A model generated the notes under the pieces. It had not been told where the DNA came from, searched no databases, and worked only from the letters and a program-made list of their open reading frames with translations. Below, one piece after another: positions 4,399 to 18,275 of a stretch of 64,000 bases of DNA (positions within the stretch are counted from its first letter, which is position 1; every line of letters starts with the position of its first letter). A program made the translations under genes and the position numbers. Source of the stretch: a virus; IMG/VR virus record IMGVR_UViG_3300019889_000001, positions 5,726-69,725 of that record; one strand, written 5' to 3'.

Positions 4399-5123
4399 GC
4401 CGCGTTCCTCTCGCCGTTCCACGACCAGATTCGTTGGTGGCCTCGTGCCGGTATCGGGTCGCAGCGGCCGAATCCTTTGCATGCAGTGCAGTACGGATCC
4501 GCACCGAGGTTCCGAGGTGCGCTGATCCAGCCGCGCCCCCAGCACCAGGGGCAGCGTTCGGTGGTGGGTGCGGCGTCCTCGATCAGCCAGGCGTAGCGTC
4601 CGGGCGAGAAGTCGCCGTAGGGAGCTTGGCTGGTGATGTCGGCCATCACATACGGCCCGAACGCAATCACCAACAGGTCGGGATTCACCTGCCAGATCGA
4701 GTATCCGTCAACTGGCCATTCGCCCCAGCCGACGATCGGGTAGCAGGCGACCACCCTTCCCGACCCGACGATCGCACCGAGCGGCAGCCATTCGCCGAAA
4801 AGATCAGCGATCGGCTCGCCGGTGTAGCCGTCCTGTCCGATCGTCTCGGCGAGCATCGAGCGACCATCGGTCGTGTTCCAACATGCGTACTCGCCGACTT
4901 CTAGTTCGTTCGCCGGTATCTGTTTCGTGGCGTGGAACACAATCCGTTGGCCGATGAGTGCGGGTGGGCACGGCCACGAGCGTGTCTCGAACCGCTTGAC
5001 CATCGAGCGTGTGTTGCACCGTTCGGCGTGCGGGTCGTTCTCGGGGTACTTGCAGTCGCACAGTTGGCGGGTGGTCAGGAGGCTTGCCCAGGGTTGATGC
5101 AAACTGATCGCGGGCATCGTCAT
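4395..5123 (-). CDS. ASCH-domain protein with Cys-rich insertions
   Basis: AISLHQPWASL...KRFETRSW...GAIVG...GRYAW...IPARGHQRIW. Confidence 0.85.
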   Translation of the reverse strand: MTMPAISLHQPWASLLTTRQLCDCKYPENDPHAERCNTRSMVKRFETRSWPCPPALIGQRIVFHATKQIPANELEVGEYACWNTTDGRSMLAETIGQDGYTGEPIADLFGEWLPLGAIVGSGRVVACYPIVGWGEWPVDGYSIWQVNPDLLVIAFGPYVMADITSQAPYGDFSPGRYAWLIEDAAPTTERCPWCWGRGWISAPRNLGADPYCTACKGFGRCDPIPARGHQRIWSWNGERNAA

Positions 5124-5530
5124 ACCGGTGCCGTCCATCCACCCGAGGTGATGATGCCGGTCGGTAGACCGGCCGAAGGGTCACGGGGTGGGATCTGATC
5201 GGGTACGAGGCCGAGTTCTTCGAGCTGGTCATCGGTGATCTCGCTGAGGCCGTTGGAGCGGATGACGTCGTTGACTTTGCGCTGGAAGGCGAGGATCGCC
5301 TGGTCGCGCCCAGGAGTCGGGGCGGGCTCGGTGCCGGTGAAATAGCTGATGCCGCCGCGGACTGCTCCGAACATCGGCAGGCTGGAGGCGATGGAGCCCT
5401 CGCGATGGTCGACATGCTCTCGTTCTTGTCGCATCGCGAGGACGTTCTTGGCGTAGCGGCGCAGCTTGGCGAGCTGGCCTGTGTCGACAAGCTTGCGGAG
5501 GTTGTAGAGGTCGATCGGGTCGATGGTCAT
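5120..5530 (-). CDS. hypothetical protein
   Basis: ORF from ATG 5530 (MTIDPIDL). Confidence 0.6.
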   Translation of the reverse strand: MTIDPIDLYNLRKLVDTGQLAKLRRYAKNVLAMRQEREHVDHREGSIASSLPMFGAVRGGISYFTGTEPAPTPGRDQAILAFQRKVNDVIRSNGLSEITDDQLEELGLVPDQIPPRDPSAGLPTGIITSGGWTAPV

Positions 5531-14000: not shown

Positions 14001-15227
14001 AAGACGAGCAGGACGCGATCGGCGACATACTCGACGACCGCGACGGCGACCACGACGGGTTCGGCTCCCATTGGAATGATCGGATCTCGGCGATCGAAGG
14101 GTACTGCGACTACTGCGAGCGCGAAGGCCACACGTTTCGCTCGTGCCCACGACGAGACGACCACCAGGACCAGTTGTGAGTGGCACCTCCCCGCGGCCAG
14201 GGCGGTCGTGGGTGTGCGAGTCCGATCCTCGTTGCATCCGCCCGGAACATCGCGGCCCGCACTTCTACCGGGAATGCGCGACTGCCGGCTGTACCAGCCA
14301 CGCTCGTCGTGAGGAACCGATGTGCCCTCGGCATGAGGACCGGGCGACGTACGAGAAATACCAAGAGGAGTCATGAGTTTCATCGTCCGCTGTTCTGATG
14401 GTGCGCAACGTCACCGCGATCCGTTTCCGACTCGCCGCCAAGCCGACGAGTTCTCATGGTGGGGTCACTGTTGCACCAGCGAACACGAAATCATCTCCCT
14501 GGAGGAGACATGCCCGCACCCCACGATCTCGACCCCGGCGCCATGACCGAAGCCGAGAGGCTCGCGAAACGCAGGTACCAAGCGCATTTCGCCTTCGAGA
14601 TGATGCCTGACCCGCCCGACGAAGACAAGGAAGCCGAATGAGCACCCAAATCTGGAAATTCCGAATCCCCGTCGACGGAATCACCGTCGACCTGTCCCGC
14701 CCGACCCCGATGTTCGTGGGCTGTGATCCGCGCTCGTCATCCATCGACGATGAAGATCTGCCTTCGATCTGGATCAAATGCCACTCGGATGGGATCCCCA
14801 CTCGACGGCGGTACTACCTCGTTGGCACAGGCCATTCAATACCACCAGGCAACGACCGTTATTGCGGGTCCGCGGTCTGCGGGTCGTACGTGTGGCATGT
14901 CTTCGAATCGGAGAAGCCATGAGTCGCTCAGATCACCCCTCGCTCGCCCAGAACGCTCACATCGAGTACGTCATCCGGTTTGAGGGCGACGACATGGTCT
15001 GCTTCTTACAGGCCGGCGCGAACTTCATCGAGTTGTATCGCGTCGAGCATGGATGTGCTGACGGAGACACAGAGATGTGCCTCGAGCAGCTCAATCGTTG
15101 TCAGTTGATGTGCGAAGACGACTACGGAACCGGTCTGCCTTGGATCGTCTCCCAAGACCCGGAAAACGACCCGCGCCTGTCCTGGACGGGCACGGTCCCT
15201 ACGAATATGAACAGGAGAACCACATGA
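11018..15227 (+). other. operon of about 18 small, overlap-coupled hypothetical genes (early/accessory region)
   Basis: Chain of ATGA/GTGA-coupled ORFs, e.g. 11018-11209, 11325-11687, 11684-11911, 11908-12126, 12123-12563, 12763-12960, 13042-13230, 13227-13409, 13570-13761, 13758-13955, 13955-14179, 14638-14922, 14919-15227; several with CxxC pairs. Confidence 0.7.
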
Positions 15228-15766
15228 CCACGAACGAGTTCATCCCCGGCGAACTGCGAGCCCGGATTGATGCGACGGGCGACGAGTTCGACCGCTTCGA
15301 TCTCGCCCGGAAGTTCATTCGGGACATGAAACGGAAGCATCCCGACGAATGGGACGAGTGGATGTTCGACGCCGAAACGTCACGCATCCTCACCATGATC
15401 CGACGGATCGTGGCGGACCGCCGACACACGGTGCGGAAACGTCACATGCGTGACGTCGCCAACAACCGGGCCTCCGCGACGATCAAGGCGAAGACGCCGA
15501 CCCCGGTTGCGTTTCCGGCCGTCCCGGCGGGCTCAATGCATTACGGCGTCGAGAACGGGAAATTCCGACGGCTGCGCGCCATGCGTCGCCCCGAAGTCCT
15601 CGCTACCGCCGCCCATTGTGAACATCTCGGCCAGGGCTCGCTACTCCAGGCCGCCGTTTTGCGGACCATCGCGAAACGGATGCCCGACGACGTTGTCGTT
15701 GTGCGAGACGTCTGCACCGACGAACAGCTCGACACGCTGTTCGGCGAGCAGCAAGTCACCTTCTGA
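15224..15766 (+). CDS. hypothetical protein immediately upstream of the pentamer array
   Basis: SD AGGAG, ATG 15224; 180 aa, basic central helix. Confidence 0.7.
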   Translation: MTTNEFIPGELRARIDATGDEFDRFDLARKFIRDMKRKHPDEWDEWMFDAETSRILTMIRRIVADRRHTVRKRHMRDVANNRASATIKAKTPTPVAFPAVPAGSMHYGVENGKFRRLRAMRRPEVLATAAHCEHLGQGSLLQAAVLRTIAKRMPDDVVVVRDVCTDEQLDTLFGEQQVTF

Positions 15767-15786
15767 ACGCAGCGCCAGGCTGCTAT

Positions 15787-15962
15787 ACGACTCCCCTCCA
15801 CCCCCCGTCCCAGTTCACCTCATCCCATACCGACAACCCAACCCGTCCCAGTACTGCCCACCCACTGCCCTCTCCGACTACCCGTCCCTCCCCGTCTCCT
15901 TCCTCCCCGCCCCGACCACCCTCCTCTCTCCTGGCCAACCTCGCCCCATACCGACAACCCAA
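15787..15962 (+). repeat. non-CRISPR array: four CCGAC-delimited units of 6-7 (NN-CCC) pentamers; candidate guide RNA
   Basis: (C)CGAC at 15788, 15830, 15874, 15912, 15951; 5-nt periodicity; 18-bp direct repeat CCCATACCGACAACCCAA at 15824 and 15945. Confidence 0.8.
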
Positions 15963-15970
15963 AGGAAACA

Positions 15971-16705
15971 ATGCCCACAGCGACACTCACCAAGCCGACG
16001 TTCAGGGACGTCTTCGCTAAACATCAGCCCAAGGTGTGGAAGCACCGCTACCACGTCGAGCTGTACGTCGAGAACCTCACCGGCGGCACACCAAACGACC
16101 CGCGCGTCATCGAGAAGTGGTTGCGTACCAAAGTGCTCAACGACAACGCCGCCCTGAACGAGGCGATCAGCAAGACGATGGTCGAGATGGGCGTCGACCC
16201 CCTCGAAGATCCGGCCGCCGGCGAGAAGGCGATGGAGAAGTACATCTCCTCGGCGCATCTCAACGGCTTCAAGCGGGTCGAAGGACAACTCATCTACGAG
16301 GGTCGGAACGCGAAGGCCGCCATCAAGGAGGCGTTCGGTGTCGCGCTCGGCTCGGGCCACATCAAGGCTCGTGGTTGGGGTGAGACCAACAAGGGCTCGA
16401 AGGCCTTCGTCGCCGAGCACATCATGATCCCCGACCGATACATCCCCATCCTTCGAGAGGACGGGTCGCCGTTCACGGAACCGACCGGCATCAACCAGCG
16501 CTTCGTCCACACCCACAACGGCGACGGCATCCAGTACGAAGAGTTCTGCGATCCGGCCCTCCTCCGCTTCGAGGTCTGGACTGACTGGGATTTCGACCAG
16601 CACTGGCCGACGATCTGGTCGATCGGCGGCAAGCAGGGCGTCGGTGCGACCCGCTCAATGGGGTGCGGCGTGTACTTCGTCTCGCGTTGGGACAAGCAGT
16701 CATGA
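15971..16705 (+). CDS. solitary Cas7/RAMP-superfamily protein
   Basis: N-terminal strand YHVELYVENLTGGTP; LIYEGRNAKAAIKEA (cf. RAMP IPGSSLKGALR); C-terminal Gly loop GVGATRSMGCGVYFV (cf. GLGGxRSRGYGRV); SD AAAGGA. Confidence 0.75.
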   Translation: MPTATLTKPTFRDVFAKHQPKVWKHRYHVELYVENLTGGTPNDPRVIEKWLRTKVLNDNAALNEAISKTMVEMGVDPLEDPAAGEKAMEKYISSAHLNGFKRVEGQLIYEGRNAKAAIKEAFGVALGSGHIKARGWGETNKGSKAFVAEHIMIPDRYIPILREDGSPFTEPTGINQRFVHTHNGDGIQYEEFCDPALLRFEVWTDWDFDQHWPTIWSIGGKQGVGATRSMGCGVYFVSRWDKQS

Positions 16706-17052
16706 TCGCCCAACTCACCCTCGCGGCCCTCCTGCTCGCCGCTCCCGCACCACCCGAGGTTCCCCAGAGCGAGGTCGACTACATCAACGAGGTGGTGGGA
16801 ATTTACTTCGAGAACATCTTCCCCGACTCGTTCGCCCCCGCGTGCAACGTGACCTTCGCAACGGCGGGCGATGCCGTGACCGGCACGTGCTATGCCTCTA
16901 GCGGAATCTCGGTGATCGTATTGCTCGTCGTGCATTCCGGCATCGAAGTCACCATCATCCCCATCGGTGAGCATCAGTACGTCGACAACGCGGAGATGGC
17001 GAGTCCCGAACTAACACTCACCGCTGACGCTCCACTCGCGCCCACGCCGTGA
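16702..17052 (+). CDS. small exported protein
   Basis: MIAQLTLAALLLAAPAPP signal-like N-terminus; ATGA-coupled to the Cas7-like gene. Confidence 0.6.
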   Translation: MIAQLTLAALLLAAPAPPEVPQSEVDYINEVVGIYFENIFPDSFAPACNVTFATAGDAVTGTCYASSGISVIVLLVVHSGIEVTIIPIGEHQYVDNAEMASPELTLTADAPLAPTP

Positions 17053-17252: not shown

Positions 17253-18275
17253 ATGAAGACCCGCATATTTGCCGCCGCAGTTCTGGCGGCAAGTGCACTC
17301 ACCATCGGCATCGCGCACGGCAACCCTGCCGCCGCCCACCACAACACAGTCAGTTGCCAATCACCCGGTGTCTGGCTCATCGAGAACTCGGAGTCCGACA
17401 AATCCGAGACGTTCGTCACAGACCAAGGTCACTCAGGCAGCATTCCGGGTGGAGAGTCCACGACGGTCGCCTACTCCGGCACGTCGCTGACGGTGACCGG
17501 CACCTGGAACAACGGCCAGAGCCAGTCCACGACCGGAACGGGCGATTGCACGGTTCCGACCGAAACGACTGACCCGCCCGTCGAGACAACCGAGCCTCCG
17601 GTGGAGACCACCGAACCTCCCGTTGAGACGACGGACCCGCCCGTCGAAACCACGGAACCTCCGGTGGAGACAACCGAGCCGCCCGTCGAGTCCACAGAAC
17701 CCCCAGTGGAGACGACCATTCCGATCGACGCCAGTTTCGACATCGACGTCGAAGGCACCTGTTCGAACACGTTGACCGTCACCATCGGCGGCGGACCTGC
17801 CGACCTGTACGCCTACGTCGTCGTCAACGGCACCCCGATCGAAGGTCCGCTCGGCACCTACGCCGAAGGCGTTCACCAGACGAACGGATCACTCGATCAG
17901 GACGTGACGATCGTCTTGACGATCACCGCGACATTCGAAGACGGCACGGTCCTATCCGACACCGAGACGATCGTCGCCGACTGTGCACCCGACGTCACCA
18001 CGACGACGGAGCCTCCGACCGTGACGACTGATCCACCCGTCGTCACGGTTCCACCCGTCGTCACGGTTCCGCCGGTCTGTGAACCGCTCGACGGCGAGCC
18101 GATCGATGGTGATGGCGACGGATTCGTACTCGACGGCACGACCGGTGTCCGACCGCTCCGCACCACCTGCGATCCGCCGACGACCGTCGCTGTGTCGCCC
18201 TCCGTGACGCCGACCACCGAGAAGGGGACCGGCGACACGTACACGAAGCCGCAGACGCTTCCGGCGACACGCTGA
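17253..18275 (+). CDS. secreted Pro/Thr-repeat surface protein ending in LPXT(R)
   Basis: Signal peptide, (PPVETT[ED])n, C-terminal LPATR-stop. Confidence 0.85.
   Translation: MKTRIFAAAVLAASALTIGIAHGNPAAAHHNTVSCQSPGVWLIENSESDKSETFVTDQGHSGSIPGGESTTVAYSGTSLTVTGTWNNGQSQSTTGTGDCTVPTETTDPPVETTEPPVETTEPPVETTDPPVETTEPPVETTEPPVESTEPPVETTIPIDASFDIDVEGTCSNTLTVTIGGGPADLYAYVVVNGTPIEGPLGTYAEGVHQTNGSLDQDVTIVLTITATFEDGTVLSDTETIVADCAPDVTTTTEPPTVTTDPPVVTVPPVVTVPPVCEPLDGEPIDGDGDGFVLDGTTGVRPLRTTCDPPTTVAVSPSVTPTTEKGTGDTYTKPQTLPATR
17560..17718 (+). repeat. 21-bp coding tandem repeat (PPVETT[E/D] x7)
   Basis: Degenerate GA[CG]CC[GT]CC[CG]GT[CG]GAGAC units. Confidence 0.85.

What the first reader, a model, noticed from the sequence alone, without database searches (positions are those of the whole stretch)
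15787..15962. Decoding of the array: four distinct dinucleotide strings
Seen: unit 1 (a)CGAC TC ccc TC cac CC ccc GT ccc AG ttc AC ctc AT ccc AT a; unit 2 CCGAC AA ccc AA ccc GT ccc AG tac TG ccc AC (c)cac TG ccc TC t; unit 3 CCGAC TA ccc GT ccc TC ccc GT ctc CT tcc TC ccc GC c; unit 4 CCGAC CA ccc TC ctc TC tcc TG gcc AA (c)ctc GC ccc AT a; then CCGAC AA ccc AA. The third base of every triplet is C, while the NN positions use all four bases, unlike slippage-generated microsatellites. Units 1 and 2 share CCCGTCCCAGT, and an 18-bp repeat links units 1/2 and 4/5, suggesting diversification by recombination. Inference: each unit carries 14-16 informative bases, and CCGAC is a processing or boundary handle.
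Basis: partly seen in the sequence, partly recalled or inferred. Interest (0 to 1): 0.85.

Follow-up and report, generated by a model that had tools for sequence, protein, structure and literature searches.

The report
Phage guide-RNA array, VIPR type
This C-rich stretch is most likely an array of short guide RNAs of a recently described phage system (VIPR), in which a CRISPR-like protein reads only every second pair of letters, here in an unusual cytosine-based version.

Summary

Three 2026 preprints describe this kind of system as VIPR. A RAMP filament binds tandem pentanucleotides, hides the fixed triplet (GGY) and pairs the NN dinucleotides with DNA, skipping every third base.

I tested that rule on one unit shared by three arrays of this family:
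- True order, 1-nt skip: at least 118 viral contigs.
- Shuffled order: 18.
- 2-nt skip: 0.
- 91 of the 118 hits encode HELGH..., the ImmA/IrrE protease motif.

Differences from the described systems: the triplet is YYC, the units are short (6-9 pentamers), and they are bounded by CCGAC with no 3' tail.

No target was established for the window's own four units, and RNA expression could not be tested.

Verdict: a non-canonical VIPR array and a variant of a known kind.

The parts
15077..15766 (+). Accessory (vap-like) gene. A helical, basic protein of about 180-229 aa. The ATG at 15224 is the start I used for the alignment.
   Evidence: The same family (cluster c1) lies upstream of the array or the RAMP gene in 37 of 53 loci; alignment A2. 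The AF2 model is all-helical, pLDDT 82. No Pfam or PHROG hit and no Foldseek PDB match at E<=0.001.
15787..15829 (+). Unit 1: (A)CGAC followed by 8 pentamers NN-YYC. NN string: TC TC CC GT AG AC AT AT.
   Evidence: Its 1-nt-skip pattern has 16 exact hits in IMG/VR. One is in a high-GC contig (L070), in frame in a terminase large subunit as MMVLTGDD. This is a candidate only.
15830..15873 (+). Unit 2: CCGAC followed by 8 pentamers, one of them with an extra base. NN string: AA AA GT AG TG AC TG TC.
   Evidence: The scan gave 34 hits, 32 of them in contigs of GC 0.32-0.53 and in open frames of at most 108 codons. The other two (L227, L247, GC 0.60-0.61) lie in one related open frame of 219 and 373 codons that I judged likely spurious by eye, without a test.
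15874..15911 (+). Unit 3: CCGAC followed by 7 pentamers. NN string: TA GT TC GT CT TC GC.
   Evidence: With 14 specified bases it is too short for a meaningful collection scan, so it was not scanned.
15912..15950 (+). Unit 4: CCGAC followed by 7 pentamers, one of them with an extra base. NN string: CA TC TC TG AA GC AT.
   Evidence: Not scanned.
15951..15962 (+). Terminal partial unit CCGAC AA CCC AA. It runs into the ribosome-binding site (AGGA at 15963-15966) of the RAMP gene.
   Evidence: Eight of the ten related loci printed show the same ending: a last CCGAC unit directly before an AGGAG-like RBS and the start codon. The printout ends before the start in L016, and a further CCGAC lies inside the gene in L009.
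15971..16705 (+). Vipr-like RAMP protein, 244 aa.

Best explanation
The stretch is an array of four and a half guide RNAs (vrRNAs) of a non-canonical VIPR system carried by a soil actinophage.

Shown:
- The locus is an accessory gene, the array, then a RAMP gene.
- The array is a lattice of pentamers NN-YYC with a nearly invariant last C. A CCGAC mark with a 3-nt phase shift occurs every 6-9 pentamers.
- The lattice sits on the RAMP gene's strand in nearly all relatives.
- One family unit decodes by the published 1-nt-skip rule to a conserved gene motif of phage and prophage regulators.

Inferred by analogy with the SUSP1 system (preprints):
- The + strand is transcribed with the operon.
- RAMP protomers polymerise one per pentamer, bury the YYC triplet and present the NN pairs.
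- Each unit pairs its 14-18 NN bases with double-stranded DNA of a competing phage or prophage, skipping every third base (the codon wobble), and blocks transcription.
- CCGAC marks where units are separated.
- The last unit, abutting the RBS, may let the protein regulate its own translation.

For: (2) Weak profile homology to the experimentally studied SUSP1 Vipr family. hhalign gives E=P=0.0013 over 126 colinear columns that include the G-loop.

(3) Conserved linkage. 33 of 52 viral loci have at least 4 CCGAC in the 400 nt upstream of the gene. 49 of 63 loci have a C lattice of 100 nt or more on the gene strand, against 1 inverted.

(4) Lattice statistics. Unit length mod 5 equals 3 in 218 of 501 units. 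The lattice C is 86-97% conserved and NN is near random.

(5) The code. The unit shared by the L008, L016 and L028 arrays gives at least 118 contigs at 1-nt skip, 18 with shuffled pair order, 0 at 2-nt skip, and 9 at 3-nt skip. All nine 3-nt-skip hits are lattice arrays themselves: four YYC/NN, four GGC/NN and L260. Of the 118 hits, 91 read HELGH, 102 lie in open frames of 150 aa or more, and 83 resemble HTH+Peptidase_M78 proteins that Pfam confirmed in 3 of 4 tested.

(6) Strand. SUSP1 arrays are co-oriented with vipr. Downstream arrays here run straight into the RBS of the next gene. Four canonical GGC/NN arrays beside canonical Vipr genes carry the same NN string in the same 5'-3' order and register on the gene strand.

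(7) Homo-oligomer model. It is head-to-tail, score 0.51 against 0.03 for the best of 3 controls. The mark was reached by 20 of 30 solved pairs and 1 of 23 single chains; runs agree in at least 84% of contacts; partner pLDDT is at least 73. The pass may reflect likeness to solved Cas7 filaments.

(8) Mechanism as published: preprints 10.64898/2026.04.26.720920 and ...720927 (sections read).
Against: - No RNA data exist, so transcription, strand and ends are inferred.
- The window's own units have no established target. The own-genome search showed no enrichment over shuffles. The u1 hit in a terminase is a single hit whose chance expectation I could only estimate roughly. The other three units do not converge on that contig. 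The u2 hits look like noise.
- Sequence homology to described Vipr proteins is weak (hhalign probability 18.8%).
- The triplet is YYC, not GGY. Units have 6-9 repeats, not 9-16. There is no structured 3' tail.
- NN usage fits codon positions 1-2 no better than a fitted independent-base model.
- The accessory protein has no recognisable DNA-binding fold.
Confidence: 0.82

Rival explanations
1. It is the same VIPR-type system, but the guide is the G-rich antisense strand (GRR/NN, with GTCGG at the unit edge), transcribed against the operon.
For: The main text of the first VIPR preprint names only G-based repeats: YNNGG, NNNGG, YNNNG, NNNNG. As a tandem repeat, the minus strand here reads as NNNGG-like (L049). 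NN usage resembles sense codons in the minus-strand reading (logL -2840.6 against -2899.1).
Against: - 49 of 50 oriented loci have the C lattice on the gene strand, as the G lattice is in SUSP1.
- There is no room for a separate promoter or terminator. Arrays abut stop codons and ribosome-binding sites.
- The same NN string occurs in the same polarity and register as in canonical GGC/NN arrays.
- A minus-strand triplet would end in a purine, whereas the published Y3 pocket excludes purines.
- In the low-confidence alignment, the residues that read G1 and G2 in SUSP1 (D177, W178) align with A and T here, while R179 is kept.
- A later preprint reports C-containing triplets, CAC/NN and GAC/NN.
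Confidence: 0.1
2. It is a C-rich, G-poor untranslated leader that acts only in cis. It could be a Rho-loading (rut-like) or unstructured spacer, or a binding platform through which the RAMP controls its own translation. In this reading the NN positions carry no guide information.
For: The extreme C>G skew is what Rho-dependent terminators prefer (general knowledge, recalled). The last unit abuts the RBS. The window's own units have no proven targets.
Against: A cis leader does not explain several observations:
- the strict 5-nt lattice with hypervariable NN;
- arrays of up to 48 units, and arrays placed downstream of the gene;
- a unit whose NN string matches a conserved coding motif exactly, only at 1-nt skip, and is shared with canonical VIPR arrays.
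Confidence: 0.05
3. It is a DNA-level element: iterons or an origin, a centromere-like protein-binding array, or a G-quadruplex-forming tract on the minus strand.
For: GGGNN runs on the minus strand could fold into quadruplexes (sequence). Short repeated marks resemble iterons.
Against: The neighbour is a RAMP RNA-binding fold, not a replication initiator or a partition protein. Orientation relative to the gene is conserved 49:1, which a symmetric DNA site would not need. The low-GC member L014 keeps only NNN-YC, so G-runs are not conserved.
Confidence: 0.03

Closest known systems
VIPR systems (Viral Interference Programmable Repeat), type II of Escherichia phage SUSP1. bioRxiv 10.64898/2026.04.26.720920 and 10.64898/2026.04.26.720927; Results, Discussion and some Methods sections read.
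   Same: - Phage-borne minimal locus: a RAMP gene, one accessory gene and intergenic tandem pentanucleotides.
- A fixed triplet alternates with hypervariable NN.
- Arrays are co-oriented with the gene (checked on SUSP1 itself).
- The 1-nt-skip decoding lands in frame on coding DNA of lysogeny-switch regulators. The preprint reports such targets for the P. fulva clade.
   Different: - The triplet is YYC (mostly CCC) rather than GGY.
- Units have 6-9 pentamers (38-48 nt) rather than 9-16 (about 100 nt).
- There is no conserved structured 3' tail or pseudoknot. Units follow each other directly, marked by CCGAC and a 3-nt phase shift.
- Arrays reach 37-48 CCGAC.
- The protein is longer (221-254 aa against about 190) and only marginally similar in sequence.
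- The host range is actinobacterial.
Non-canonical VIPR arrays reported in bioRxiv 10.64898/2026.10.21.760802 (passages read).
   Same: 5-nt periodic arrays next to Vipr-like folds whose fixed triplet is not GGY. The examples named are GAC/NN, CAC/NN, WGT/NN and TGH/NN.
   Different: The text names no CCC/NN or YYC/NN pattern and no CCGAC punctuation. It says the motifs repeat about 10 times. The full list is in a figure and supplements that I could not see, so this family may or may not be among its 21 clusters.
Class 1 CRISPR backbone (Cas7/Csm3/Cmr4 filament on crRNA).
   Different: Period 5 with only 2 pairing bases, rather than period 6 with 5. There is no CRISPR repeat-spacer array. None of the four ORFs flanking the array that I scanned matches a Cas family; no library of Cas models was run across the window, so absence of cas1/cas2 was not tested. 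The guides are sequence-constrained.
TIGR-Tas arrays (search listing and abstracts only).
   Same: Phage-associated tandem arrays of short guides that lack CRISPR-type repeats.
   Different: The period is about 18 nt, the guides have dual spacers, and the effector has a Nop domain rather than a RAMP.

Membership tests
VIPR | Sequence relationship to described Vipr proteins (SUSP1 / X1U2U4 family). | tested here: inconclusive
   hhalign of A1 against A3 gives E 0.0013, probability 18.8%, over 126 colinear columns. Against the single SUSP1 protein, E is 0.36.
VIPR | Minimal locus of vipr plus one accessory gene, outside a CRISPR-cas context, mostly in viruses or proviruses. | tested here: met
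   The record is a complete virus record with terminal repeats and carries phage structural genes. The accessory family c1 is present in 37 of 53 loci. The flanking ORFs tested have no Cas family. Only 4 ORFs around the array were scanned.
VIPR | Tandem pentanucleotide repeats in which a fixed triplet alternates with hypervariable NN. | tested here: met
VIPR | Canonical triplet GGY (or the G-based variants NNNGG, YNNNG, NNNNG). | tested here: not met
   The triplet on the gene strand is YYC, with C at 86-97% in the third place. It would be G-based only if the opposite strand is read.
VIPR | vrRNA of 9-16 repeats capped by an invariable structured 3' tail. | tested here: not met
   Units have 6-9 pentamers. 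The only conserved element is CCGAC(TA)CCC. The preprint also mentions tail-less 'staggered' arrays, which I could not compare because the figure is not held.
VIPR | NN strings match natural DNA targets under the 1-nt-skip rule, with the skipped base at the codon wobble. | tested here: met
   Met for one unit shared by three family arrays: at least 118 contigs against 18 (shuffled) and 0 (2-nt skip); 102 of 118 are in frame in open frames of 150 aa or more. For the window's own units the result is inconclusive.
VIPR | vrRNAs are expressed, processed and co-purify with Vipr. | not testable with these tools
   Only 4 DNA runs of soil metagenomes hold the stretch.
VIPR | Vipr protomers polymerise into a filament. 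| tested here: inconclusive
   The three-copy model scores 0.51 against 0.03 for the best control, with head-to-tail contacts. This is a model only, made without RNA, and may reflect memory of Cas7 filaments.
CRISPR-Cas | Array of identical repeats of more than 20 nt with unconstrained spacers. | tested here: not met
   There is no repeat longer than the 18-mer pair, and the 'spacers' are lattice-constrained. Absence of an adaptation module (cas1/cas2) was not tested: searches scanned 14 ORFs of the window and named no Cas family, and no library of Cas models was run across the window.

The most novel reading that the evidence does not exclude
This may be an undescribed VIPR lineage, widespread in actinophages. 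Its RAMP pocket has been re-specified from GG to pyrimidines (YYC/NN). It stores up to about 48 tail-less guides head to tail, separated only by a CCGAC mark and a 3-nt phase shift. Its guides are preferentially antisense to the coding strand of their targets, which leaves open action on transcripts as well as on DNA. It shares at least one anti-ImmA/IrrE guide with canonical GGC/NN systems, pointing to convergent or exchanged targeting of the lysogeny switch of rival prophages.
Probability: 0.3. Interest if true: 0.7.

Novelty: new variant of a known kind. Interest (0 to 1): 0.55.

Why it matters
VIPR was first described in 2026 and is proposed as the ancestor of CRISPR effectors and as a very small programmable DNA binder.

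A large actinophage family that uses a different fixed triplet and much shorter, tail-less guides would show three things. The protein's triplet pocket is evolvable. 14-18 informative bases are enough in nature. Dozens of guides can be packed without processing tails. All three are useful for understanding the code and for engineering it.

The decoded anti-ImmA/IrrE guide gives a concrete, testable case of one phage silencing the lysogeny switch of others in Actinobacteria.

For the scan itself, a tool-less reading of raw sequence recovered the published logic.

Tried and rejected
Searches that returned nothing useful
- Rfam at E<=10 on 15000-17000: three weak matches (E 1.5-4.5), all in the flanking genes and far below gathering score; none in the array.
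- blastn of 15000-17000 against 50,697 phage records: no match.
- tblastn of the protein: one record only, Microcystis phage Mae-JY09, 29% identity. A C lattice lies downstream of that gene.
- The search for related loci with the single protein: none. The alignment was needed.
- Pfam and PHROGs: nothing for either flanking protein.
- Promoter and terminator scan: nothing in the array.
- Foldseek of the accessory-protein model: no match at E<=0.001.

Early ideas dropped once the RAMP fold and the preprints were found
- A TRAP-like ring binder, a Rho decoy, a G-quadruplex, and iterons.

Target searches for the window's units
- u1 scan: 16 contigs. Ten are one near-identical low-GC cluster in which the reverse NNx frame I examined is open for only 30 codons; the forward frame was not examined. 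One high-GC terminase hit remains as a lone candidate.
- u2-u4 do not converge on that contig. Its terminase has no relative in the window phage.
- u2 scan: 34 contigs, judged noise.
- u3 and u4 were not scanned, because 14 specified bases are too few.
- The window units are not shared with other arrays.

Other
- NN codon-likeness: the reverse reading beats the forward one but not a fitted null.
- The lattice hit at window 21424 is ordinary coding sequence.
- Sequencing runs: no RNA holder listed (after a busy answer).
- Supplements of the preprints are closed. They may already list this family.

Full report
**1. Observation**

Window 15767-15970 is the intergenic stretch between a + strand ORF ending at 15766 and a + strand ORF starting at 15971. 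All 27 triplets end in C, and the 32 NN pairs use all four bases.

- CGAC occurs five times, 43, 44, 38 and 39 nt apart. Only 15 of 10,000 shuffles reach five copies.
- C-C co-occurrence peaks at lag 5; 47 of 10,000 shuffles reach it.
- The stretch is the most C-rich, G-poor part of the window.

The window is a complete 69.7-kb virus record with terminal repeats. It carries terminase, portal, head, tail and endolysin genes.

**2. The neighbours and the family**

The downstream 244-aa protein has no Pfam or PHROG family. It has 864 relatives at E<=0.001, among them proteins from Streptomyces, Actinomadura and Nocardiopsis.

With an alignment of 22 of these (A1) I fetched 52 viral loci and 10 loci from genomes, nearly all Actinomycetes.

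- In 33 of 52 viral loci, the 400 nt upstream of the gene hold at least 4 CCGAC.
- Arrays reach 1,930 nt with 48 CCGAC (L007), 1,330 nt with 47 (L029) and 1,150 nt with 37 (L003).
- Of 501 CGAC-to-CGAC intervals in 26 arrays, 218 have length = 3 mod 5. The other residues are 0: 103, 4: 94, 1: 48 and 2: 38.
- In 197 units anchored on CCGAC, C fills offsets 9, 14, 19, 24, 29 and 34 at 86-97%. The two preceding positions are C at 50-85%. The NN positions are near random.

So the array is a lattice (NN-YYC)k, with a CCGAC pentamer and a 3-nt phase shift at each unit edge.

A helical protein family (the window's 15077-15766 ORF) sits upstream in 37 of 53 loci. Its model has no PDB match.

**3. The protein is a RAMP**

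The AF2 model has pLDDT 79.7.

- Foldseek: the 12 hits at E<=0.001 are all Cas7-family chains: type VII Cas7, Cmr4 and Csm3.
- By sequence, 4 of 22 members hit Csm4 and 4 of 22 hit Cas6, below threshold.
- A three-copy model gives head-to-tail contacts, score 0.51 against 0.03 for the best of 3 controls. The mark was reached by 20 of 30 solved pairs and 1 of 23 single chains. Runs agree in at least 84% of contacts, and the partner pLDDT is at least 73. This pass may be memory of Cas7 filaments.

**4. What is known**

A literature search found bioRxiv 10.64898/2026.04.26.720920. I read its Results, Discussion and three Methods sections. It describes VIPR:
- phage-borne RAMPs (Vipr) with an accessory gene (vap);
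- vrRNAs of 9-16 YNNGG repeats plus a 3' tail;
- NN dinucleotides that pair with double-stranded DNA under a '1-nt skip rule', with the skipped base at the codon wobble;
- targets that are rival phages, satellites and prophage lysogeny regulators.

The companion preprint ...720927 (abstract and two sections) shows one protomer per repeat. G1 and G2 are read by H17/D177 and R138/W178. Y3 sits in a pocket that excludes purines.

A third preprint, 10.64898/2026.10.21.760802 (passages), reports 21 clusters with non-canonical triplets, for example GAC/NN and CAC/NN.

None of the text I could read mentions Actinobacteria or a CCC/NN pattern. Figures and supplements were not available.

**5. Link to the described system**

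I fetched phage SUSP1. Its YNNGG arrays lie on the same strand as its two VIPR genes. A profile of 24 relatives of its 195-aa protein aligns to A1 with E=P=0.0013 and probability 18.8%, over 126 colinear columns that end in the G-loop.

In that low-confidence alignment, SUSP1 D177 and W178 face A and T in the window protein, while R179 faces R. This is consistent with a changed reading of triplet positions 1-2 and a kept pyrimidine pocket. This point is an inference.

**6. Testing the code**

*Window units.*
- Against the phage's own genome, the four NN strings at gap 0-3 do no better than shuffles. The preprint likewise reports no self-targets.
- u1 at 1-nt skip has 16 exact hits in IMG/VR. 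Fifteen are in low- or mid-GC contigs. One is in a 72%-GC contig, in frame in a terminase large subunit.
- The other units do not converge on that contig.
- u2 gives 34 hits that look random.
- No target is therefore established for the window.

*A family unit.* Arrays diverge fast but share single units. One unit lies exactly between two CCGAC and is shared by L008, L016 and L028.

| Pattern | Contigs |
|---|---|
| shuffled pair order, 1-nt skip | 18 |
| true order, 2-nt skip | 0 |
| true order, 3-nt skip | 9 |

Of the 118 loci at 1-nt skip:
- 91 read HELGH at the site;
- 102 lie in an open frame of 150 aa or more in that phase;
- 83 resemble three proteins that Pfam calls HTH + Peptidase_M78 (ImmA/IrrE).

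Pfam confirmed that call in 3 of 4 proteins tested; L095 gave nothing.

The match ends at the unit edges. This supports CCGAC as a boundary.

**7. Which strand**

The nine 3-nt-skip hits are:
- four YYC/NN arrays;
- four canonical GGC/NN arrays;
- one further lattice array (L260) in a short locus.

The four canonical arrays lie on the same strand as a canonical Vipr gene (HMM E 6e-13 to 2e-69). They carry the same NN string in the same 5'-3' order and register.

Three further points bear on the strand:
- orientation is 49:1 in this family;
- arrays run directly into ribosome-binding sites;
- the third triplet base is a pyrimidine.

I therefore put the C-rich + strand as the guide at about 85%, given that this is a VIPR array.

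NN usage (1,028 pairs from 182 clean units) resembles sense codons in the reverse reading more than in the forward one (logL -2840.6 against -2899.1). It fits no better than a fitted base-composition null, -2840.1. A strand bias is possible but not shown.

**8. Verdict**

The finding is a real, non-canonical VIPR array.

It differs from the described systems in four ways:
- the triplet is YYC;
- units are short;
- CCGAC punctuation replaces a 3' tail;
- arrays are large.

I therefore file it as a variant of a known kind.

Still untested: expression, processing, and the targets of the window's own four guides.

Noticed in passing
L252:6569-6706 (- strand); also L254: In canonical GGC/NN VIPR arrays of high-GC viral contigs, the guides are separated by elements with a tRNA-like T-arm (GGTTCGAGxCC). 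ARAGORN calls a 94-nt 'tRNA-Ala' directly upstream of the guide in L252. This may be a processing signal for RNase P or RNase Z.
   Followed up: partly
L049:2152-2934: This is the only locus of 63 in which the lattice array is inverted, with G on the strand of the RAMP gene. No second RAMP gene was found in the 4.7 kb held.
   Followed up: partly
L065 (Microcystis phage Mae-JY09, PP395641.1) 4800-5125: This is the only isolated phage in the 50,697-record collection with a relative of the RAMP (29% identity). It has a C-lattice array with CCGAC marks downstream of the gene, followed by a strong hairpin. It could serve as a culturable model.
   Followed up: partly
L014:2641-2900: A low-GC member (51% GC) keeps only NNN-YC with (C)CGAC marks. 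The minimal conserved feature of the lattice is therefore the last one or two pyrimidines.
   Followed up: no
L034, L036, L052 arrays (e.g. L036 array positions 147-195): A second unit is shared between diverged arrays at 88-94% identity. Its lattice is irregular. It was not decoded.
   Followed up: no
L260:83-124: A further lattice array (NNxxC) carries the same NN string as the anti-ImmA guide. The locus held is only 1,971 nt and no RAMP gene is in view.
   Followed up: no
window 17253-18275 (+): A 340-aa protein with PVETTE/PPVETT tandem repeats. Its first residues look like a signal peptide by eye; this was not tested. It has a partial match to phrog_25538, of unknown function.
   Followed up: no
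window 14638-14922 (+): A DUF7352 / phrog_3848 protein lies just upstream of the accessory gene.
   Followed up: no
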